From Naegleria gruberi (taxonomy: Eukaryota), in assembly GCA_000004985.1 (NCBI GenBank), contig GG738887.1: a stretch of 64,000 nucleotides of DNA; one strand, 5' to 3'. Below, piece after piece: positions 8,880 through 41,198 of the stretch. The position numbers were made by a program, and so were the translations under genes. Below the pieces are notes generated by a model. It made no database searches, was not told where the DNA came from, and saw only the letters and a list, made by a program, of their open reading frames with translations. Every line of letters begins with the position of its first letter. Positions within the stretch are counted from its first letter, which is position 1.

Positions 8880-11682
8880 TTGTCTTTTAGTTTCTCTGAA
8901 AAATTACTCGCCACAAATATCCTATTCGATTCCACAGGAATGTTCTTCACTGAGAGAGTGAAACAACTACATTTCTCCAATTACCAAAGTATTGGTAGGA
9001 CCTCAAGAACATACTTGACAGCATTTGGTAGAATTGTGATGAAAAACTCCATTTTCAGAGATTATGTCTATAACTTTCCATCACTCATTATTGAGAATGG
9101 AAATGTTGCTCAATTGAGTGAAATAGTTGCTTTATCCAATACTATTTGGGCTTCTTTTAGATATATTGATAATTTTTCTTTAAAGAATGTCAAAGTGACT
9201 GGAAATCAAATTGTGAATGTCAAAATGACATCTGATAGTCCAATAACAATTACTAATTGCAATCAGATTACAATTGCTGACTCTTTCTTCAACAAGAACG
9301 TTGGATACATTGGAGGGAGTATCCTAATTAATGAATATATCAATATTGACCTGTTTAACAACACCTTTACAAATTGTAAATCTTTTAAAAAAGGAGGAGC
9401 CCTCAATATTGAAAACTATCAACAATCATCACTCATTACTCAAAGTACTATCAATATCATGAGCAATACCTTTGAAAATAATTGGAGCTCAACTGTTGGA
9501 GGTGCCATTTCAATTTTAACAGCCAATCAACTCTATGTGAAAAATAACATTTTCAAAAGAAATGCTGCAAACTCTGCAGGTGGAGCATTTGCCATCACGA
9601 CACATGTCATTAAAGGAGAGTTGGAATCGTACTTTGAAGATAACAGTGTCACTGGCTCATTTCATTCCTTGAATAATTCACAATACTCCTCTGATTCGAA
9701 TCTTTATTTGATGGGAGCTGGTGGAGCTTGTTTGATTCTAAATATGCCGCAGTTTAGTTTTGTCATATCTAGATCTGTATTTGTGGGAAATGAGGCTGAG
9801 AAAGGAGGAGCTGTTGCATGTGGAGCTGACTCGTTGAAAACATCTAAACAGTTAGTTCAAGAATGCAAATTTAGTGAAAATAGAGCTTCCAAAATAGGAA
9901 ATGCTATTTATTTTATTAGACCACAAAGTGTAAACGTAATTGATCAGGAAGTGAGTGGAGATCAAGAGTTATTCTCCTCAACTCCTACAGTTTTTGAAAT
10001 TTTAGAAATGCAACCAAATATAGTATTCCCTGGACAATCAATTTCCTTAACAGTATATTTGGAGAATGTTTTTGGAAATGTTGTGAATGTCACTACTCAA
10101 AATATAATGTTCAGTGCTCAGGATGTTTTTGAAACTTTCCTTAGATATTCACCAAACAGTAATTCCTCATTATTATTTACTCCCTATGCCAAAACAAGTA
10201 ATGTCAAAGATTCTGTTCAGAATTTAACACTTTACTCTGAAGATGGTCGATTGAGTAGAGTTTTATCCTTCACACTAACTGATTGTCCTTCGGGGTTTAT
10301 CATGGAAAAGACAGTTTTCAACTCATTGTTGGTATACGAATGTAAAATTGACACTCGACTGAATGTCAAGTTACTAATTGGTCTCATTGTTCCTCTTGGA
10401 CTCATTGTCTTGGTGATTGGTATCATAATCGGCTTGCTGACCTTCTTAATTATCAGATTTGTCTTTGCACAATTGAAAATGTTAAGAGAAAAACAAAAAG
10501 CAGAAAAAAGTTTGGAAATGCGAATAATTGACAAGAAGGTCATTTTCAATTCTTTTGAAAATACATCACATAATGATTTATCAATTCCATTAATTGATGA
10601 TTCAGCTGAAAAGGAAAAGAAACCATCTTTTATTATTCCAATAGAAAGTATTGAAATTATTCGAAAGCTGGCTGAAGGTGGTTTGGGAATTATTTATCTT
10701 GGTAAATTGTGGAAGAAAATTAACATTGCCATCAAATTATTGAAATCAGACGAGCAAGATGATGAATTTGAACAGGAAGTTTCACTTCTGAGCTCTTTAA
10801 GACATGACAATATTGTGACATTTTATGGAATTTGTGTCACTGATCAAGGAAAGTACATGATAACAGAGTTTGTGGAGAAGGGATCGCTCGATAGGACTCT
10901 ATACAAGGCAAGAATAGGTGAAATTGATTTGTCTCTCCATCAAAAGATTTCCATTCTCATAGCTACAGCCAAGGGAATCGAATATCTTCATTCATTAACC
11001 CCAGTAGTTGTGCATCGTGATTTGGTAAGTTTCTTAATTACAGTGGAATAATTAGTAATTGTCAACAGAAACCTGGAAATATCCTACTAGACGATAAGAA
11101 TATTGCCAAGATTTGTGATTTTGGCTTGTCAAGAGTTGTGTCAACCACAACAATGCAAAGTGTCATGACTACCAATTTGGGAACTTTATTCTATTGTCCA
11201 AGGTATGTTGTTTTTTGTTAACATTTGTTGACATTTTTGAAAGTGAGGTGATTGAGGGACCAACTGAAACAAATTTGGCCTCTAAACAAACAGCTACAAA
11301 GATAGATGTCTATAGTTTTGCAATTATCATGTGGGAAGTTTTTTTCGAGCTGGTTCCTTACTCTACAAATGTCGAAAAATTGATTCCACAATTTGAAATT
11401 TCCAAGCAAGAGGAAGAAGCTCTCAAAATTAATGGTTTCAACATTCCATATTATGTAGTGAAGGGTGTGAGACCATTTATTCCTTTCAAAACTGATGAGC
11501 AAATACGAAAGTGGCTGGAACTCTACATGCCAAACGAATTGAAAAATTCAGAAATTATTCTAATTGTTAAGACTTATTTCACAATAATGAAACAAGCATG
11601 GTCTCACAATGCCACAAAAAGACCTACCATCGATTCAGTTCGATCAGAATTGGAACAATTGGAAGAATTGTTAAGAATCTAA
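8880..11682 (+). CDS. Receptor-like Ser/Thr protein kinase. The ectodomain has right-handed beta-helix (PMP/pectin-lyase-like) repeats, followed by a single TM and a cytoplasmic kinase. There are three exons, with introns at 11025..11068 and 11203..11243.
   Basis: The ectodomain carries repeated GGAL/GGAI/GGAF/GGAV/GGAC motifs typical of parallel beta-helix (polymorphic-membrane-protein-like) repeats. The TM is LLIGLIVPLGLIVLVIGIIIGLLTFLII. Kinase motifs are AEGGLGIIYLG, AIKLLK and HRDL|KPGNILLD, where the intron splits HRDL from KPGN (donor gtaagt, acceptor caacag). Then DFGLSR, and a second intron (gtatgt..gaaag) before EVIEGP...DVYSFAIIMWE. The 5' end is uncertain because upstream ORFs and the gap may contribute exons. 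Confidence 0.7.
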
Positions 11683-31682: not shown

Positions 31683-32322
31683 TTTTTTTAATTAAATATT
31701 AAATAAATTTGATGACAGATGACTTATGTTACAAGTAAAAAAAGTTGAATTGTTAAATTATTGATCTAGATCAGGTTTGGTTCCTTCAAATTATTAAGAA
31801 AAGTTCCAACAGAACAGAAAAATTCACATATTAATTGGTCAAGAATCGAAAAGACGACCCCAACTCGGAATTTAAAAAAAAATACAATGCAAAGCCTTCT
31901 TCTTAGTAGTTTCACTTGTTTCGCCTCACCGCTCAAACGACAATGAGCACCCGAAGAAGCACACTTCGGGAAGGTTCCACAATCAAATAATATAAAAATA
32001 TAATTTAAAGAAGCAAAGGAAAATATATTTTTGAATTTTGTGATAAATTGTTGATGAAGTGATAAATTGTGCTACTGATTGGAATTGTAAAATATCAAAT
32101 CCACAAAAAACCTAGCTATCCATGTACTTTCAAAGATGAGTTAAAGATGAGTTAAAGCATGATGCGAAAATGAATCTGATATTCGTAGATGCTTTTGATA
32201 ATCAGCGAGGAGAAAAACGCAGATTCAGAACAAACAACGTACTCAAAATGCTAAAATTTCTAATTTGACATACACATAGAGATGACATCTGTCACGTTGT
32301 AAGTAACTATCAACACAAAAAA

Positions 32323-35300
32323 ATGAAAGTGGTACTACTTGCTATTTTGTTGTGTATTGTTATGTCTGCCAAGTTCATTGACACACAAAGTCTTCTTCTC
32401 TACAATATCACAACAATAGCAGGAGGTGGTTCTGTTGTGGGCGATGGTTTACTTGCTACTAATGCTCAATTAGCAATCCCTGCAGGCGTTGCAATTAGCT
32501 CTATTGGTGAAATAATAATTGCTGACTCCAATAATAATAGAATTCGTAAAATAAGTACAAATGGCTACATTTCAACGATAGCAGGAACAGGAAGTGCATC
32601 ATTTGGTGGTGATGGTGGACTGGCCATTAATGCACAATTAAATAGTCCTTCTGCTGTTTCTATTAGCTCAAATGGTGATATGTATATTTCGGATACGGGC
32701 AATCAAAGAATTAGAAAAATCAGTACCAATGGATATATCTCAACAATTGCAGGAAGTGGAACTGGAGGATACAGTGGAGATGGCGGATTGGCCACAAGTG
32801 CTCAATTATATTATCCCAAGGGAGTAGCTATCAGTCCAAGCAATGAAATTTATATAGCTGATACCTATAACCATAGAATTCGTAAAGTAAACACAAATGG
32901 ATATATCTCAACTGTAGCAGGAAGTGGAACTGGAGGCTACGGTGGAGATGGTGGATTGGCCACAAGTGCTCAGGTAAACTATCCATTTAGCGTGTCAATT
33001 AGTTCTACTGGTGAAATTTATATTGCTGATTATTACAATCAAAGAATTCGAAAAGTTACAACATATGGTTTTATCTCGACTGTGGCAGGAAGTGGAACTG
33101 CTGGATACAGTGGAGATGGTGGATTGGCCACAAGTGCTCAATTATATTATCCGCTTGGTGTGTCAATTAGTTCTGCTGGTGAAATTTATATTGCTGATTA
33201 TTACAATCATAGAATTCGAAAAGTTACGACATCTGGGTACATTTCTACAATTGCAGGAACTACCTATGGTTTCAGTGGAGATGGTGGATTGGCCACAAGT
33301 GCTCAGTTGTACTATCCCAATGGCGTTTCAACAGGCTCCAATGGTGAAATATTTATAGCTGACACATACAATTATAGAATTCGTAAAATTAATACCTCTG
33401 GTTACATTTCTACAATTGCAGGAACATCAAGCTTTGGAAACAACATACCTGCTACCGGCGCCAACATAGCACCAACTGGCTCCCCTACTCTTAACAATGG
33501 TAAAATTGTATTTGCAGACACCTCTGGCCAAGTGAGGCAAGTTGACCTTACTACTAATATTATTTCTACCCTAGGTGGAACTGTTGGATCTACAACAATA
33601 GTACAGGCATTCTATAATCCAACATGCGCAAAGTATTACAAGACAGATTTATATATTCTCTACTCTAACTACTATTTAGACAAGGTCACCTCAGTTGCCA
33701 GTAAGGTTGCAGGTACTGGTACTTTAAATGGATACGGTGGAGATGGTAACCTTGCAACAAGTGCAAGATTGAATTATCCTTATGGTACTGCATTTAGCTC
33801 AAATGGAGATATGTATATTGCAGATACAAACAATAATCGAATTCGTAAAGTTACAACATCTGGATATATCTCAACTGTAGCAGGAAGTGGAACTGGGGGA
33901 TACAGTGGAGATGGTGGATTGGCCACAAGTGCACAATTAAATTATCCAAGATCAGTTGCAATTAGCTCAAGTGGAGAGATTTATATTGCTGATTTCAATA
34001 ACCACAGAATTCGTAAAATTAACATCTCTGGATATATCTCAACAATAGCAGGTACTGGAAGTGTAGGATACAGTGGAGATGGTGGATTGGCCACAAATGC
34101 ACAATTATATTATCCCCAAACAGTTGCAGTCAGCTCAAGTGGTGAAATTTATATTGCTGATGCCTATAACCATAGAATTCGTAAAATTAACACCTCTGGA
34201 TATATCTCAACAATAGCAGGTACTGGAAGTGTAGGATACAGTGGAGATGGCGGATTGGCCACAAGTGCTCAATTATATTATCCATTTAGTGTGGCAATTA
34301 GTTCAGTGGGTGAAATTTATATCGCTGATACCTATAACCATAGAATTCGTAAAATTAATACCTCTGGTTACATTTCCACAATTTCAGGAACTGGAAGTGG
34401 AGGATATAGTGGAGATGGCGGATTGGCCACAAGTGCACAATTAAATTATCCATTTAGTGTGGCAGTTAGTTCAGTTGGTGAAATTTATATAGTTGACACC
34501 AATAACTATAGAATTCGTAAAATTAATACCTCTGGTTACATTTCCACAATTGCAGGAACTGGAACTGGAGGATATAATGGAGATAGTATTTTGGCCACAA
34601 GTGCACAATTAAATTATCCTTATGGACTCACAATAAGTTCAACTAGTGAAATTATTGTTGCTGATTATTACAATCACAGAATTCGTAAAATTAACACCTC
34701 TGGTTACATTTCAACAATTGCTGGCGGTTTTGGTGATGGAGATATGGCCACCACAAGTTTCATTTCAGCTTATTCATTCGAGTTCACTTTAAATGGAGAA
34801 ATTATTATAGCTGATTCAAATAATCACAGAATTCGTAAAATTACAACATTAGGATATATTTCCACAATTTCAGGAACTGGAACTGCTGGATATAATGGAG
34901 ATGAAATTTTGGCAACAAACTCTCAATTGAATAATCCTAACGGAATTGCACTAAGTTCCAATAGTGAAATTTATATAGCTGATACCAATAACCATAGAAT
35001 TCGTAAAGTCAATGCATCTGGTTACATTTCAACAATTGCAGGAACTGGAACTGGAGGATATAATGGAGATGGTGTTTTGGCCACAAGTGCACAATTAAAT
35101 TATCCTAATGGAATTGCAATTCAAGAAAATGGTGAAATACTAATTGCTGACAATAATAATCATAGAATTCGTAAAATACGCACAAATGGCTATATTTCCA
35201 CAATTGCTGGAAGTGGAATTGGTGGATTTACTGATAATACTGTAGCAACAAGTGCTCAATTAGAAAATCCCTTGGGGGTTGCAATCGGTTCAAACAAAGA

Positions 35301-38300
35301 GATTTTTCTTACTGATTCGACCAATAAGAGAATTAGAAAACTTATCCCTTGGTGCTCAGAAAATGGCATTCTAATTAATGGAACTTGTGAATATCAATGT
35401 TTTGGAGAAACTAATAAGAACTCAACTGTTTGCTCTGGAAGAGGAAACTGTATTGGGAATGATCAGTGTAATTGCACCACTCCTCAATACTTCGGTTCAA
35501 AATGCAACCAATTTTATTGTTATGGACTATTGAACGCAATGTCAAATGTTTGTTCGTCCCAAGGTAGCTGTAATTCTCCTAATAATTGTACATGCTTTAA
35601 AGGGCATTATGGAGAAACTTGTCAATATTTTTACTGTAACTCTATTCCATTCAATTCCAGTGCTGCTTGTTTAGGTAGAGGTTCTTGTATCTCATATAAT
35701 AATTGCACATGTCAACAAGATTATGCAGGCAATGATTGTCAATATTTTTATTGTGGTAATCGTCTGAATAATGATGGTACAGTGTGCTCTGCACATGGAA
35801 ACTGTATATCTCCTCATAATTGCTCTTGCGACAGTGGTTTTTATGGAAGCAATTGTGAACAATTCGATTGTTATGGCATTAATAATTTGAATGCATCAGT
35901 TTGTTCCAGAAATGGTTATTGCTCCTCTCCAAATAATTGCAAATGTGATCTTGGTTATTATGGAAATAGCTGTGAAATGTATAACTGTTATGATATTCCA
36001 AAAACTGACCCAAGTGTTTGTTCAGGTCAAGGCCTTTGTTCTTCATATAATAACTGCACTTGTCAACAAAATTATTCAGGAGTTAATTGCGAAAATTTCC
36101 ATTGTTATGGAATATCAAAAATAGAGTCTACAGTGTGCTCATCACATGGAACATGCTTAGCGTTGAATAATTGTTCTTGCATTGATGAATATTTTGGAAA
36201 TAATTGTGACCAATTTAAGTGTTATGGTGTTAACTTTATGAACAATTCAGTTTGTTCAGGAAGAGGCCAATGTATTTCGCCAAACTATTGTAAATGTGAT
36301 CTTGGTTATTATGGAAATAATTGTGAAATGTATGATTGTTATGGGTTGTCAAAAAATAATACCAATGTATGCTCAGGTCACGGTACGTGTATTTCATTGA
36401 ATAACTGTACTTGCAGAGATGGATATTATGATTCCAAATGTGGTTCATTTAACTGTGCTGGAGAAAAATTTATAGGCCAAAACCTTTGCCAAAATAATGG
36501 CTCTTGCACTGGTCCTGGTAACTGTGAATGCCCTATTCAGTATGGAGGTGCTAGATGTGAATATTTCAAATGTTATTCATTTACATCCAATGATCCTCAA
36601 GTATGTGGAGGTCATGGAACTTGTTATAATTATAACCATTGTACTTGCTCTCAAAATTGGTTTGGAAAAGATTGTTCAGTCACCACTTGTTTTAGTACAC
36701 CTTCTAACTCTAGCTCTGTATGTGGTGGAAGAGGTAATTGTACTGATTATAACCAATGCAGTTGCAACATTGGATATAGAGGTAATGAATGTGAACATAC
36801 TGTTTGTTATGATAAGATTGAAAGTGATAGTTCTGTATGCTCTGGAAAAGGTTTATGTCTATCACCAAATAATTGCACCTGTGAAACAGGTTTTGTTGGA
36901 AGTGAGTGTCAATACCATGAAGTATATTTAAATACGTCATCCGCCATTATTTTTTCTTTCCATAACAGTCTAATGAAGTTATTACCAAATGAGAGTGAAC
37001 AATTTTCGTGTTCTGACATTTTTGAAGAATCAGAAATCGACAAATTTGGAGAAAGTTCCTCTTTCATCTGCCAATGGAGAAGAAAATCATTACAAATTCA
37101 TCTTGGTTTTGATTATGCTATTGGTCATAACTCTATCATTCAAACTAAGTTTAACTTTTCATTGAGAGTTTATACTTTATCCAATGAAGCTTCATCTCCA
37201 ACTTGTTCTTTTGGATATTCATTAACTGAAACTTCTCCCTTATTAGATATAGTGATACGTTTGAATTGTGATGACAATTTTCATGGCTTCAAGAAATTGA
37301 GAACTGATTGGTCGTGTGATCAATGCACAAACAGCGTTTCATCATTATTGAACAACTATTCAAATAGATCATCCATTTATATCCCTATTTCATATATGAA
37401 TAGTTTGACTCCTATTCAAGGTTATAAGATTATTAACTTACAAACTTCTTTTTCATCAGAGATTTATTCTACAAAATCCATCAACAAGGAAGTTAAGGTT
37501 CAATCCTATGCAAAATCATTACCTCCAAGTTATTACTGGCTAAGTGATAATTATGCTGGAAAGACATATTCATGTATTGCTCATAATTGCATTTTAGAAA
37601 CTTCTTTAAATAGTTTAAACTCTTCTATTTCTTATTCATTCTCTGGATTTTTCAGTTTATTGAATAATGACCTAAACTCTAAACAAATGGTGAGGATGAT
37701 TAATGATTATTCTGGTGGAGTTTTAGATAGCGAATTTAATTCAAATATGCAAGTATTTGGTGTTCAGCTAAAAACATATGTTTACTTACCATTAAGCATT
37801 GACTCTTTTAAATATTCAACATTTACGAACTTGGATTTTGTTATGGCAGGTGTCAATAGAACATATTCGATCAACTCAGATAGTCTGGTGACAGTTACAT
37901 TGGTAACTGATGATCCATACATCTCAAAATATACTCTAAGCGATTATTTGGAATACACTTGGAAATGCTACATGGTTTCTTCTTCAAATAGATCTCTTCT
38001 TTTGACAGATAATTTATGTTCTTCAATTGAAAACACTAGATCTTATCTTATGTTAGACATTACGAAAATGTCTTTAAAAGAAGGTTCATATGTAATATCT
38101 GCTTCGATTTCCTCTACAAAATACTTTGTCACAACCGTTTACAACTATGCAGGTTTTATTGAATTGTTGGATATTTCCAACGAATCCCCTAAAATAACCA
38201 CAGACTACTTGCCTGCAATCACACCTTCTCATAATAATATTTATTTAAGAAGTGTGGTAAACTCTTCCTCAGAGGTTTCGTTTGCTTGGAACCTCAAACA

Positions 38301-41021
38301 TGGTTATTTGAATGTTGATGAAAACATAGAAGATTTTCTCCAAAGAAACACAATTTACACAAACATCATTGACAATAACGTTGAAATCATTTTGAACGTT
38401 GATAACAAGTACATCATTCCAGGAGAATCGTATGAATTCGAATTATCAACTAAAAATTCAAAAGGTTATGCTAATGTCTCCATTTCAACAAGAGTTGACT
38501 TCTCCCCACGATTGTCATGCGATGTCGAGAATTTGAAGAATGATGCTAATATTACCAGTTTTGAATCATTGATATCCATTACTTGTGTAAAATTACCATA
38601 CGAAAGTATTTCGAGTTTTGTGATGGAATTTTATTCACAAAATGAAAGATTGGGAGTAATATCTAATACTCCAAAGAAATCCTTAGTTACTAGAGTTCCT
38701 TATTATGCACAAGATGGAATAATTACTTTGGTTGTAAAACTTCAAAACTTGTATGGATCTATTGGAGTATTTAGAAAGAATATCAAGATTGGATTACCTA
38801 ATTATTTGTCAAATGACAATACGATTATTTCCCGAGTTACTTACTCCCTAAACCAATTCCAAAATATTAAGAATTCTCAACCAGTCAAGATGGAAGTTTC
38901 AAATGAAATCAATACTTTACTTTCTCTATTAATTCAAAATGAAACTCTCTCGAAATTCTCTGAGAATGTTGTAAAGCAATTGAATTCAGCTCAATTAACT
39001 TCATTCAATACCATGCTAAGAGAAATGATCATATTAACGAAGAGTTTACAAGATATTACATACAGGGTTGATGAAAGAGTCATTCAATTGACTTTGCCCG
39101 TTGTCAGCAAGATTTGTAATATTTTAAAAATAACTCTGGACACTTCATCATTATCTTCATTCGCTCTTGATGTAGAAAAATGGTTGGATTGGATTTATTC
39201 TGGAATGGACAAAGCGCTTAATTATTATCAAACCAATATTTACAAAGACTTACTTGATAACTATCATTTGCAAGAAATAGAGTCATTACAAAACATTCTT
39301 TCAACTATTTATCAAAGTAATTTCGAGCAGCAATACAAGTTCTATAAGTATAATTTACAATACATCAAGCTGACTGGAAGCAATACTGATAATTCAAGCC
39401 TGGTGGAAAATATTGAATATTCTAATTTATTGAATGCCAAGGCTATCTCTCTCTCAATTTCCAACTTTAAGGTGGACATGAAATTACCTAATGATTTTAC
39501 GAACCAAATTTCTTTGCAATCTAAATCTAAACTATTCTATTCTATCAGATCATTTAGTAACACTGGAGCTACAAATCTTTTACAAGAAAAACCAGTGGTT
39601 GATCTATCTCTGTATGACGCCTCTTACAATATTATTAACGTCAAAAATATCAATCCACCAATTGTCTTCAAATTCCAAGGATTAATTACCAATAATAAGA
39701 CTGGCATCAATACTACTTGTATATATTATGACACAACTCTTTCAAAATGGTCTACTATTGGGTTGGAAACATACACCACAATAACTAAAAGAACAGACGA
39801 TTTTATTTACTTCGATATGGAATGTCGTTCCAGTCACTTATCAGTCTTTTCAGTTCAAGAAGTTGATTATAACTCTCCTATCACACCTATTACCGCTATA
39901 TCATCTAATAGATCTAGTAGAGATGAATCATCAACCATTTTAACAATTATATTATCAACAGTTTTACCGATTAGCCTTTTAATACTTGTTTTTATCATTA
40001 TTTTGGTTGTTTTCATGATCCTTTTATTTAGAAATAAGCAAAAGAAAGCAAATGAACTAGCAAATACAACCAATATTGAACTATCAATATCAGACTTCCC
40101 ATCTGAAGGAAGTATGTTTATTCAACCACTTACAAGCATTTCTTCCAATGGAACTGCTTCTGAATCCTTCAATCCTCTCTCTAGATATTCTAATCTGGTA
40201 AGAATTGGACAAGGATCTTTTGGATCTGTGTTTAAAGCATTTGATAACAAGTCCGATTCAGTCAAGGCAATTAAGGTTATTCGATATAATTCAATGGAAG
40301 AATTGAACAATTTTATGAAAGAAGGAACTCAATTAATGAATGTTAAACATCCTTACATTTTGAGAGTTAATGAATTCTTTGTGAGTAAGGATCAATTACT
40401 TTGTATAGATATGGACTTTTATGAACTAGGAGATTTGGTCCGATTGACCAATGTTGATTTTGACTGCTCTGAAAAATTAATTAAGCAAATAATTTTCCAA
40501 ATGTGTCAAGCTCTTGATTACATTCATAGCAATATGAAAATAATTCACAGAGACATCAAACCATCAAATATATTTGTAAAAAGTTTGGAAAATGATAACA
40601 TTCATATCATTGTTGCAGATTTTGGGTTAGCTAAAGCAAATACTACATCTACAAACAATTCTTATGCAGGTACTCCTATTTTTATGGTAAGTTTCTTTAA
40701 TTCTTCATTAATTATTAACAAGTTTAGTCTCCTGAACTTGGCTTAGGTGGAAAATATTATTATAACACGGATATTTATAGTTTAGGTGTTACAATTTATC
40801 AAATAATGACAAAAGACACATTTACATCAATAAGTCAACTTTACTTGGGCAAAGATCAAAATGAAGTATCCAAAATATTAAACAAAAAGTTATAAGAGGA
40901 TCAATACTCCCAAAGACTTACTGATTTAGTGTTATCAATGCTAACAAGAGATAATTCATCTAGACCTCAAGCTCAAGATATTTTGCAAGATTCTTATTTT
41001 GATGATTTAAGAATGAAACGA
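32323..41021 (+). CDS. Giant receptor Ser/Thr kinase of roughly 2,900 aa. Order: signal peptide, about 16 NHL-type beta-propeller blades, 13 EGF-like modules, about 1000 aa of unassigned ectodomain, a single TM, and a C-terminal protein kinase. There is an intron at 40687..40727. The 3' end has an in-frame TAA at 40893, which may be bridged by a 27-nt intron at 40889..40915.
   Basis: Signal peptide MKVVLLAILLCIVMSA. A 56-aa unit …GYISTIAGTG…GYSGDGGLATSAQLNYP…GEIYIADxxNHRIRKINTS… repeats about 16 times. 13 modules follow the pattern C-x-G-x-G-x-C-x4-5-C-x-C-x2-G-Y-x-G-x2-C-E-x-F-x-C-Y-G. The TM is ILTIILSTVLPISLLILVFIIILVVFMILLF. Kinase motifs are IGQGSFGSV, AIKVI, HRDIKPSNIFV, ADFGLAK, then GTPIFM|SPELG across a 41-nt gtaagt…tttag intron, and a C-terminal …DLVLSMLTRDNSSRPQAQDIL. 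Confidence 0.8.
32420..35340 (+). repeat. Tandem coding repeats of period 168 nt (56 aa, NHL-like blades) inside the giant receptor gene. Several copies are more than 90% identical at nucleotide level.
   Basis: Visible in the sequence: for example 33990..34150 and 34160..34320 are nearly identical (catagaattcgtaaaattaacacctctggatatatctcaacaatagcaggtactggaagtgtaggatacagtggagatgg…). Alternate-frame ORFs in the track (33011..33358, 34241..34444) are by-products of this repetition. Confidence 0.8.
35350..36920 (+). repeat. Array of 13 EGF-like (tenascin/integrin-beta-type) modules of about 32–40 aa within the giant receptor.
   Basis: CSGRGNCIGNDQCNC, CSSQGSCNSPNNCTC, CLGRGSCISYNNCTC and similar. 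Each is followed by GYYGxxCExYxCYG linkers. Confidence 0.75.
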
Positions 41022-41198
41022 TAACCAAAAACTGAATTACTTTTTATATTCAACCAGGTGTGGATGTGTAACATTTCAAATTAATACTACTGAAAACAAG
41101 TACTAATATTAATGAGTGGAAAAGCTCAGGATCATGAAATTTTTGACTTTAAACATCTTTTGGCTTGTGGTAAATGAAATTTATTTAATTTATATCAT

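What the first reader, a model, noticed from the sequence alone, without database searches (positions are those of the whole stretch)
33850..35200. Near-identical 168-nt tandem coding repeats suggest recent expansion or concerted evolution
Adjacent 168-nt units differ by only a few substitutions at DNA level, not just at protein level. The pattern catagaattcgtaaaattaacacctctggatatatctcaacaatagcaggtactgg… recurs several times. The 5' blades (32420..33420) are clearly more diverged. This points to recent unequal-crossover expansion or gene conversion in the 3' half. It also makes the region a likely site of assembly collapse or expansion.
Basis: seen in the sequence. Interest (0 to 1): 0.55.

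Follow-up and report, generated by a model that had tools for sequence, protein, structure and literature searches.

The report
NHL propeller blade repeats, Naegleria receptor kinase
The 168-base repeats each encode one blade of an NHL beta-propeller domain in the outer part of a large Naegleria gruberi receptor-kinase gene; they are real duplicated copies but old and well diverged (at best 89% identical), so this is an ordinary repeat-domain gene, not a recent or unstable expansion.

Summary
The window is Naegleria gruberi nuclear DNA. The flagged region lies in one 8.4-kb exon of NAEGRDRAFT_70916. The 168-nt period is real: 16 canonical 56-codon units plus two degenerate ones make 18 NHL blades, most simply three six-bladed propellers.

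"Near-identical" is wrong. Adjacent units in 33850-35200 differ by 19-54 of 168 bases (best 89% identity). The quoted 56-mer occurs once exactly and once with two mismatches. The longest exact repeat is 57 nt.

DNA similarity does exceed what protein constraint plus codon bias predicts: 62% same codons at identical residues against 46% expected, and 55% against 50% in the gene's own EGF repeats. So the units are true duplicates.

They are old. The lowest dS is 0.25±0.09 and most pairs lie between 0.6 and saturation; dN/dS is 0.15-0.55 in the seven closest pairs. The 5' block is not more diverged (74% vs 75%), and its units nest among 3' units in a tree.

Relatives carry 6 or 12 mutually diverged blades, so this gene grew by blade-level tandem duplication. 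Assembly collapse is unlikely.

In passing: the public gene model reads through a 41-nt intron, an in-frame TAA truncates the kinase, and a GAIN/GPS-like domain precedes the membrane span.

The parts
32323..40686 (+). Exon 1 of Naegleria gruberi gene NAEGRDRAFT_70916 (XP_002673894.1 / D2VPM5). It runs from the signal peptide through the NHL, EGF, middle and GAIN-like regions and the membrane span to the N-terminal two thirds of the kinase.
   Evidence: The ORF 32323..40746 is 100% identical to P0001 'predicted protein [Naegleria gruberi]'. Domains come from Pfam.
32371..33375 (+). NHL blades 1-6 (units U1-U6: five of 168 nt and U6 of 165 nt).
   Evidence: RIRK anchors and a unit HMM; TRF period 168; the AF2 model shows four strands per unit.
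33376..33675 (+). Two degenerate blades, d1 (aa 352-401) and d2 (aa 402-451), between the two regular blocks.
   Evidence: The unit HMM gives a weak hit of 37 bits for d1 and none for d2. AF2 still places four-stranded sheets here, at lower pLDDT of 42-69.
33676..35328 (+). NHL blades 9-18 (units U7-U16), including the flagged region 33850-35200 (U8-U15). U13 (34678-34827) is 50 codons long and U16 is 55.
   Evidence: The closest pairs are U9/U10 and U10/U11, at 89% DNA identity.
35329..35352 (+). Terminal RIRKLIPW segment after the last blade. The same ending (RIRKLTPYC) follows the single propeller of the paralog P0123.
   Evidence: Sequence comparison.
35398..36921 (+). Thirteen teneurin-type EGF-like repeats with a strict 39-residue period.
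   Evidence: Pfam EGF_2, EGF_TEN and EGF_Teneurin. Motif spacing is 39 aa. These repeats are old: 53% DNA identity and same-codon fraction 55% against 50% expected.
38830..39858 (+). GAIN-like domain (helical subdomain plus beta-sandwich) ending in a GPS-like motif, C-x3-H-L|S-x-F. The putative cleavage site lies between L2506 and S2507 (39838-39843).
39937..40029 (+). Single membrane-spanning segment (ILTIILSTVLPISLLILVFIIILVVFMILLF).
   Evidence: Read directly from the translation; no predictor was run.
40186..40686 (+). Protein kinase domain, N-terminal part (VKAIK lysine, HRDIKPSN, DFG, up to GTPIFM).
   Evidence: Pfam Pkinase E 2e-33, profile positions 1-164 of 263; motifs located.
40687..40727 (+). 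41-nt intron (GTAAGT...TTTAG) that the public gene model reads through.
   Evidence: Removing it restores 'GTPIFM|SPELGLGGKYYYNTDIYSLG', which matches the relatives P0026, P0126 and P0123.
40728..41024 (+). Exon 2: the C-terminal part of the kinase domain. It is interrupted by an in-frame TAA at 40893-40895, and the family-typical stop is at 41022-41024.
   Evidence: Translation gives '...ILNKKL*EDQYSQRLTDLVLSMLTRDNSSRPQAQDILQDSYFDD...'. Relatives have Q, E or G at the stop position.

Best explanation
The 168-nt units are the coding repeats for single blades of NHL beta-propellers. They lie in the extracellular part of a single-pass receptor-like Ser/Thr kinase of Naegleria gruberi (NAEGRDRAFT_70916).

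The gene encodes 18 blades, 16 regular and 2 degenerate. The simplest reading is three six-bladed propellers. After them come 13 EGF-like repeats, a long region with no recognised domain, a GAIN/GPS-like domain, one membrane span and a kinase.

The array grew from an ancestral six-bladed propeller by stepwise tandem duplication of one to a few blades (unequal crossing-over), mostly from a consensus-like blade resembling paralog blade 2. The copies have since diverged under purifying selection. Scaffold residues stay invariant, and a handful of positions per blade (6, 8, 20, 23, 38, 39, 45, 53, 54) are free to vary. The propellers presumably form a multi-site ligand- or surface-binding module that feeds into the kinase.

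Shown: the period, the blade fold, the DNA-level relatedness, the age of the copies, and the blade counts in relatives. Inferred: the 3x6 partition, the duplication mechanism, and the binding function.
For: - Identity of the gene: 100% match to the N. gruberi predicted protein.
- NHL: Pfam NHL E 7.8e-119 in 13 stretches, and TEN_NHL E 9.8e-107.
- Blades: 17 unit-HMM hits plus one 50-aa gap give 18 blades.
- Fold: the AF2 model has mean pLDDT 83.6 with 18 four-stranded sheets. Foldseek matches six-bladed NHL propellers (Pizza6 TM-score on target 0.87-0.91; SOQ1; NHLRC2; the teneurin and TLP NHL domains). Sequence hits include the TLP NHL domain at E 7e-113, SOQ1 over residues 27-343 of the modelled NHL region (aa 43-359 of the protein; a full six-blade domain), and PknD.
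- True duplicates: same-codon fraction 62% against 46% expected, with the EGF control at 55% against 50%.
- Old copies: dS 0.25±0.09 at best, typically 0.6 or more; dN/dS 0.15-0.55.
- Local tandem origin: identity declines with distance, p about 0.0008, and the NJ clades mix the two blocks. Stretches at about 90% identity run across unit boundaries at offset 168.
- In-gene amplification: relatives have 6 or 12 diverged blades. U1 matches paralog blade 1, and U7 matches blade 6. Thirteen of the other 14 canonical units match paralog blade 2 (12 units) or blade 3 (U16) best, but match each other far better; the short unit U13 matches blade 7 best.
- Scaffold against variable positions.
- The general principle that propellers arise by blade amplification: PMC6805158, PMC3797127.
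Against: - The split into three six-bladed rings could not be read from the model coordinates. pTM is only 0.51, and any six consecutive consensus-like blades would align to a six-bladed template.
- With one genome, old gene conversion cannot be separated from old duplication.
- No ortholog from another strain or species was found for this paralog, so copy-number stability is untested.
- The in-frame stop in the kinase raises the possibility that the gene is decaying or signals differently.
- The ligand is unknown.
Confidence: 0.8

Rival explanations
1. Concerted evolution: the 18 blades are ancient, and their similarity is kept up by repeated gene conversion between units rather than by later duplication.
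For: In-gene blades are much more alike than paralog blades. Similarity is mosaic along units: U11 resembles U12-U15 in its 5' half and U10 in its 3' half. Neighbours are more alike than distant units.
Against: No conversion tract is visible. The longest exact match is 57 nt, and the longest stretch at 90% or more is 143 nt. The lowest dS is 0.25. The mosaic pattern is equally well explained by duplication in a shifted register, since about 214 nt at roughly 90% identity lies at offset 168 (34207-34420). Blade number differs among relatives (6, 12, 18), which requires duplication in any case.
Confidence: 0.12
2. The resemblance is at protein level only: strong constraint on the NHL scaffold plus AT-biased codon usage gives apparent DNA similarity without recent common ancestry of the units.
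For: For the outlying units (U1, U7, U13, U16, d1, d2) codon identity is at the chance level, z between -1.3 and 0. Bacterial NHL arrays share the same 56-residue consensus at about 48% identity.
Against: For the central units, same-codon fractions reach 88-92% against about 46% expected, z 4-6. The EGF control sits near expectation. Shared synonymous variants define clades.
Confidence: 0.03
3. Assembly artefact: the repeat number or unit sequences are collapsed, expanded or chimeric.
For: Tandem repeats in general are prone to this. There is an unexpected in-frame stop elsewhere in the gene.
Against: Every unit is distinct by at least 11%, and the longest exact repeat is 57 nt. The frame is open across all units, and the total of 18 is a whole multiple of the six-blade NHL propeller.
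Confidence: 0.03
4. The regular NHL array was acquired from bacteria by horizontal transfer and is not an in-situ amplification.
For: After the Naegleria paralogs, the best hits are long bacterial NHL-array proteins (45-57% identity, same 56-residue period). Individual units are closer to the best bacterial blade (57-70%) than to the best paralog blade (50-61%).
Against: Both are close to the NHL consensus, which inflates identity. U1, U2, U7 and the C-terminal RIRKL-P-C ending keep positional correspondence with Naegleria relatives. Units are closer to one another (66-88%) than to any bacterial blade. Base composition and codon usage match the rest of the gene.
Confidence: 0.02

Closest known systems
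Beta-propellers that arose by amplification of a single blade (Chaudhuri/Kopec/Lupas; e.g. the WRAP domain of Nostoc punctiforme discussed in PMC6805158)
   Same: [quoted passage not shown] The array grows by blade duplication.
   Different: WRAP-type cases have near-identical blades with no synonymous differences (PMC6805158). Here the closest blades differ by 11% of bases, with dS 0.25 or more. This is an aged, differentiated amplification.
Bacterial multi-NHL array proteins ('sugar lactone lactonase YvrE'-annotated giants from Acidobacteriota and others; P0002-P0120)
   Same: The same 56-residue NHL unit consensus, and 15 to more than 30 blades in tandem. Internal blade identity is comparable or higher: the median of the means is 57%, and this gene ranks 36th of 100.
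   Different: Those are prokaryotic proteins with Ig, cadherin-like or RHS partners. This is a eukaryotic receptor with EGF, GAIN-like, membrane-span and kinase parts.
Mycobacterium tuberculosis PknD (receptor Ser/Thr kinase with an extracellular six-bladed NHL propeller; PDB 1RWI/1RWL)
   Same: An NHL propeller sensor is joined through one membrane span to a Hanks-type kinase. The PknD NHL domain is a direct sequence hit (E 8.5e-13).
   Different: PknD has one propeller at the C-terminus and the kinase at the N-terminus, and it has no EGF or GAIN parts. The orientation here is the reverse, and there are 18 blades.
Teneurins and bacterial teneurin-like proteins (TLP; PDB 9IFO/9PT5, PMC13018210)
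   Same: The best solved sequence relative of the blades is the TLP NHL domain (E 7e-113), followed by teneurin NHL domains. The EGF repeats match the teneurin EGF profiles.
   Different: There is no FN-plug, YD/RHS shell or toxin domain. The membrane topology is type I rather than type II, and the cytoplasmic part is a kinase.
GAIN/GPS domain of adhesion GPCRs and polycystin-1-like proteins
   Different: It is followed by one membrane span and a kinase, not 7 or 11 spans. Only two of the four canonical GPS cysteines are present. Pfam GPS is below threshold for this protein. Foldseek did not recover GAIN.

Membership tests
NHL repeat (Pfam PF01436 / TEN_NHL PF25021) | Profile match above the curated threshold, repeated in tandem | tested here: met
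   NHL scores 382.7 bits against a cut-off of 20, in 13 stretches. TEN_NHL scores 357.4 bits against 27.1.
NHL repeat (Pfam PF01436 / TEN_NHL PF25021) | Each repeat forms a four-stranded blade of a closed six-bladed beta-propeller | tested here: inconclusive
   AF2 gives 18 four-stranded sheets at pLDDT 83.6. Six-blade segments superpose on Pizza6 (TM 0.87-0.91), SOQ1 and NHLRC2. The 3x6 partition could not be read from coordinates, and pTM is 0.51.
Recently amplified propeller (WRAP-like, near-identical blades) | Blades nearly identical, with few or no synonymous differences in the DNA | tested here: not met
   The best pair is 89% identical, with 8.5 synonymous differences over 39 sites (dS 0.25±0.09). 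The definition is taken from PMC6805158.
Tandem repeat under ongoing concerted evolution | Long identical conversion tracts between units, or within-gene identity far above that expected from age | tested here: not met
   The longest exact shared tract is 57 nt. The longest stretch at 90% identity or more is 143 nt.
Teneurin / bacterial teneurin-like protein | FN-plug + NHL + YD/RHS shell 'superfold' | tested here: not met
   Only the NHL and EGF profiles match; no YD, RHS or FN-plug family was found at E 0.01 or below. The definition is from PMC13018210.
Eukaryotic protein kinase (Pfam PF00069) | Profile match with the catalytic Lys, HRD, DFG and APE-type motifs | tested here: met
   Pkinase scores 116.4 bits. 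VKAIK, HRDIKPSN and DFGLAK are present, and SPE appears after the intron is removed.
Eukaryotic protein kinase (Pfam PF00069) | Complete C-lobe (subdomains X-XI, including the conserved Arg) | tested here: not met
   An in-frame TAA at 40893-40895 cuts off the last 42 codons, including '...SMLTRDNSSRPQA...', in the sequence as assembled. A sequencing error or readthrough cannot be excluded.
GAIN domain with GPS motif | Helical subdomain A plus beta-sandwich subdomain B, immediately before the first membrane span | tested here: met
   [not shown]
GAIN domain with GPS motif | GPS sequence motif (Pfam PF01825) above threshold | tested here: inconclusive
   This protein scores 11.4-13.3 bits against a cut-off of 22.5. 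Relatives score 13.9-20.7 bits, and the multi-pass relative P0204 scores 40 bits. The family profile hits ADGRF1 and ADGRG1 at E 3-5e-4. C, W, G, C, H and F are invariant across the family.
GAIN domain with GPS motif | Autoproteolysis at HL|S/T | not testable with these tools
   The H-L-S triad is present (aa 2505-2507). Cleavage needs biochemistry.
PknD-type NHL sensor kinase | N-terminal kinase, one membrane span, C-terminal single NHL propeller (bacterial) | tested here: not met
   The domain order is reversed, there are 18 blades, and the context is eukaryotic. The resemblance is functional, not membership.

The most novel reading that the evidence does not exclude
Naegleria carries a family of single-pass receptor kinases not described in the papers I could search. 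In them a GAIN/GPS autoproteolysis-type domain sits between an adhesion-like ectodomain (1, 2 or 3 NHL propellers plus teneurin-type EGF repeats) and a Ser/Thr kinase. That would join the adhesion-GPCR style of tethered or cleavable ectodomain to kinase signalling, far outside Holozoa. The blade amplification in this paralog would then be the way the family diversifies its binding surface. The flagged repeats themselves would remain ordinary.
Probability: 0.4. Interest if true: 0.5.

Novelty: new member of a known kind. Interest (0 to 1): 0.27.

Why it matters
The flagged feature needs no new biology. It is a textbook-type case of a beta-propeller array built by blade duplication, now moderately aged, in an annotated but uncharacterised Naegleria gene. 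Its practical value is modest:

- It shows that this locus is not an assembly hazard.
- It gives a clean within-family series (6, 12 and 18 blades) for studying how propeller arrays grow.
- It corrects the public gene model, which misses an intron and hides an in-frame stop in the kinase.

The more interesting lead is outside the finding. A GAIN/GPS-like domain is coupled to a receptor kinase in a heterolobosean. If confirmed, this bears on how old and how modular the GAIN domain is.

Tried and rejected
- Searching the protein database with the non-repeat middle region returned only two EGF-driven hits and not even the query's own entry. The word filter was swamped, so that search was wasted. 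The exhaustive representative search then recovered the family (P0020, P0123, P0126, P0160, P0204).
- The exact-protein look-up of P0001 in assemblies found nothing. A metagenome scan with the middle region found no relative. No cross-strain copy-number comparison was therefore possible.
- Literature searches for Naegleria with NHL, receptor kinase or EGF found nothing.
- I looked for whole-propeller (six-blade) or other higher-order duplication. There is no consistent diagonal at offsets of 6 blades, only weak offset-3 similarity (U12/U15 83%, U11/U14 76%, U13/U16 59%). I rejected this as the main mode of growth.
- I looked for positive selection. dN/dS is 0.15-0.55 in the closest pairs, so there is no evidence for it.
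- A second intron to remove the in-frame TAA is not possible, because no GT...AG of plausible length surrounds it.
Full report
**What the window is.** The ORF 32323..40746 (+) of 2,807 codons is 100% identical over its full length to 'predicted protein [Naegleria gruberi]' on a 508-kb scaffold. That entry is XP_002673894.1 / EFC41150.1 / D2VPM5, locus NAEGRDRAFT_70916. GC is about 33% throughout the window. Neighbouring ORFs encode a kinase, a calpain and LRR proteins. This is eukaryotic nuclear DNA from a heterolobosean amoeba.

**Checking the observation.**
- TRF finds a period of 168 nt in two blocks: 32485-33424 (5.6 copies) and 33730-35177 (8.7 copies). Both have 76% matches.
- Anchoring on the RIRK motif gives 16 canonical units of 56 codons. 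U6 and U16 have 55 codons and U13 has 50.
- A unit HMM adds one degenerate unit (aa 352-401) and leaves one 50-residue gap (aa 402-451). The total is 18 blade-sized units.
- In the codon-aligned identity matrix, adjacent units are 59-89% identical. Inside the flagged interval the counts are 27, 19, 19, 34, 46, 54 and 42 mismatches.
- The quoted 56-mer occurs once exactly and once with two mismatches.
- The longest exact repeat is 57 nt. The longest stretches at 90% identity or more are 143 nt or less.

'Near-identical, only a few substitutions' is therefore an overstatement. The claim that the 5' block is clearly more diverged also fails. Mean identity is 74% within U2-U6, 75% within U8-U15 and 73% between the blocks. 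In a neighbour-joining tree U3 joins U9-U11 and U4/U5 join U8.

**Is the similarity more than protein-level?** Yes.
- At residues that are identical between two units, the same codon is used in 62% of cases. The gene's own codon usage predicts 46%.
- The best pairs reach 43/49 (U9/U10), 35/38 (U11/U12), 36/41 (U12/U15) and 37/45 (U4/U5), with z of 5-6.
- As an internal control, the 39-residue EGF repeats of the same gene give 55% against 50%.
- The outlying units (U1, U7, U13, U16) sit at chance.

**How old are the copies?** Nei-Gojobori estimates give dS 0.25±0.09 for U9/U10. Six further pairs lie at 0.32-0.39, and most lie between 0.6 and saturation. dN/dS is 0.15-0.55 in the closest pairs. 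The copies are real duplicates but not recent, and they evolve under purifying selection. Identity declines with distance along the array: 80% for neighbours against 74% at 8 or more blades apart (Spearman -0.40, permutation p about 0.0008). Stretches at about 90% identity at offset 168 run across unit boundaries, for example 34207-34420 against 34375-34588. This is what local tandem duplication in an arbitrary register would leave.

**What the repeats encode.**
- Pfam: NHL (E 7.8e-119, 13 stretches) and the teneurin NHL domain (E 9.8e-107).
- AF2: a model of residues 17-1020, built on an alignment with bacterial and Naegleria homologs, has mean pLDDT 83.6 and shows 18 four-stranded sheets. 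Confidence is lower in the two degenerate blades and in the short unit U13.
- Foldseek: six-blade segments match six-bladed NHL propellers, namely Pizza6 (TM-score on target 0.87-0.91), SOQ1 and NHLRC2, and the model also matches the teneurin and TLP NHL domains.
- Sequence search of solved structures: the Bacillus TLP NHL domain (E 7e-113), teneurins, SOQ1 (residues 27-343 of the modelled NHL region, i.e. aa 43-359 of the protein, spanning a whole six-blade domain), TRIM71, Brat and PknD.

Eighteen blades as three six-bladed propellers is the simplest reading. I could not read the partition from coordinates, and pTM is 0.51. Across 11 regular units the scaffold residues are invariant. Variation is concentrated at positions 6, 8, 20, 23, 38, 39, 45, 53 and 54.

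**Family context.**
- The exhaustive search with the non-repeat region found full-length relatives: P0020 and P0026 in N. gruberi (P0026 on the same scaffold), P0123/P0270 (NAEGRDRAFT_49308) and P0126/P0271 (N. fowleri FDP41_013523).
- P0123 and P0126 have about six blades. P0020 and P0026 have 12. This gene has 18.
- Paralog blades are mutually diverged, with BLOSUM62 scores of -10 to 119 against self-scores of 194-295. Thirteen consensus-like blades here (U2-U6, U8-U12, U14-U16) score 130-252 against one another, 150-252 without U16; the short unit U13 scores only 95-126.
- U1 corresponds to paralog blade 1 and U7 to blade 6. The ending RIRKL-P-C is shared with P0123. Of the other 14 canonical units, 12 match paralog blade 2 best, U16 matches blade 3 and U13 matches blade 7; these units match each other better.
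- The array therefore grew inside this gene from a consensus-like blade. This is the known route by which propellers arise (PMC6805158, PMC3797127).
- Compared with the 'just amplified' examples in that literature, which have no synonymous differences, this one is aged.
- Among 100 NHL-array proteins recovered here, mostly bacterial, its internal blade identity is unremarkable: rank 36, with a median of 57%.

**Assembly risk.** Every pair of units differs by at least 11%, no exact repeat exceeds 57 nt, and the frame is open through a whole multiple of six blades. I see no sign of collapse or expansion. Only read-level data could settle this.

**Beyond the finding.**
1. The public protein ends where the ORF ends, inside the kinase domain (Pfam profile 1-164 of 263). 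A 41-nt GTAAGT...TTTAG intron at 40687-40727 restores 'GTPIFM|SPELGLGGKYYYNTDIYSLG', exactly as in the relatives.
2. The restored frame then meets TAA at 40893-40895, where relatives have Q, E or G. This is 42 codons before the family-typical stop at 41022-41024. It is a real truncation, a sequencing error or a readthrough site.
3. The roughly 340 residues before the membrane span model as a helical subdomain plus a beta-sandwich (pLDDT 78.6).
   - Foldseek missed them.
   - The motif C-x3-H-L-S-x-F directly precedes the membrane span. Pfam GPS is sub-threshold here at 11-13 bits, but reaches 40 bits in the multi-pass relative P0204.
   - A family profile hits the GPS regions of ADGRF1 and ADGRG1 at E 3-5e-4.

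A GAIN-like domain joined to a single-pass receptor kinase is not something I could find described. That absence rests on a limited library.

**Verdict.** The repeat is real and is DNA-level duplication. It is an ordinary, moderately old NHL blade array, not a near-identical recent expansion, and not confined to the 3' half. Interest in the finding itself is low. The gene's overall architecture is the better lead.

Noticed in passing
window 40687-40727: The public gene model (XP_002673894.1, 2,807 aa) reads through a 41-nt GTAAGT...TTTAG intron and so ends in a false C-terminus. Splicing restores the kinase 'SPE' segment seen in all relatives.
   Followed up: yes
window 40893-40895: There is an in-frame TAA inside the kinase C-lobe, at a position where relatives have Q, E or G. 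It lies 42 codons before the family-typical stop at 41022-41024. It could be a pseudogenising mutation, a sequencing error or a readthrough site.
   Followed up: partly
[not shown]
   Followed up: yes
window 35398-36921: Thirteen teneurin-type EGF-like repeats have a strict 39-residue (117-nt) period. They are much more diverged at DNA level (mean 53%) than the NHL units, and TRF did not report them.
   Followed up: partly
related proteins P0123/P0126 (6 blades), P0020/P0026 (12 blades), this gene (18 blades): The number of NHL blades steps by six across members of the same Naegleria receptor-kinase family. P0026 lies on the same 508-kb scaffold, outside the window.
   Followed up: partly
related protein P0204 (N. 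gruberi NAEGRDRAFT_80461), not in the window: This protein has EGF repeats and a GPS motif above the Pfam threshold (40 bits), followed by a multi-pass membrane region and an RGS-like tail (seen by eye). If its juxtamembrane domain is a GAIN domain next to a 7TM, that bears on the published view that the GAIN-7TM module arose in stem holozoans (PMC12716839).
   Followed up: no
related proteins P0012 and P0079 (metagenomic, bacterial-type NHL arrays): Each contains at least one pair of 56-residue NHL blades that are 100% identical at protein level.
   Followed up: no
window 8880-11051: This ORF ends with a protein-kinase domain cut at profile position about 129 of 258. As with the flagged gene, this suggests a downstream intron rather than a true end.
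   Followed up: no
window 32132-32162: A short 11-nt tandem repeat (AAAGATGAGTT x 2.7, 95% matches) lies about 160 nt upstream of the start codon of the receptor-kinase gene.
   Followed up: no
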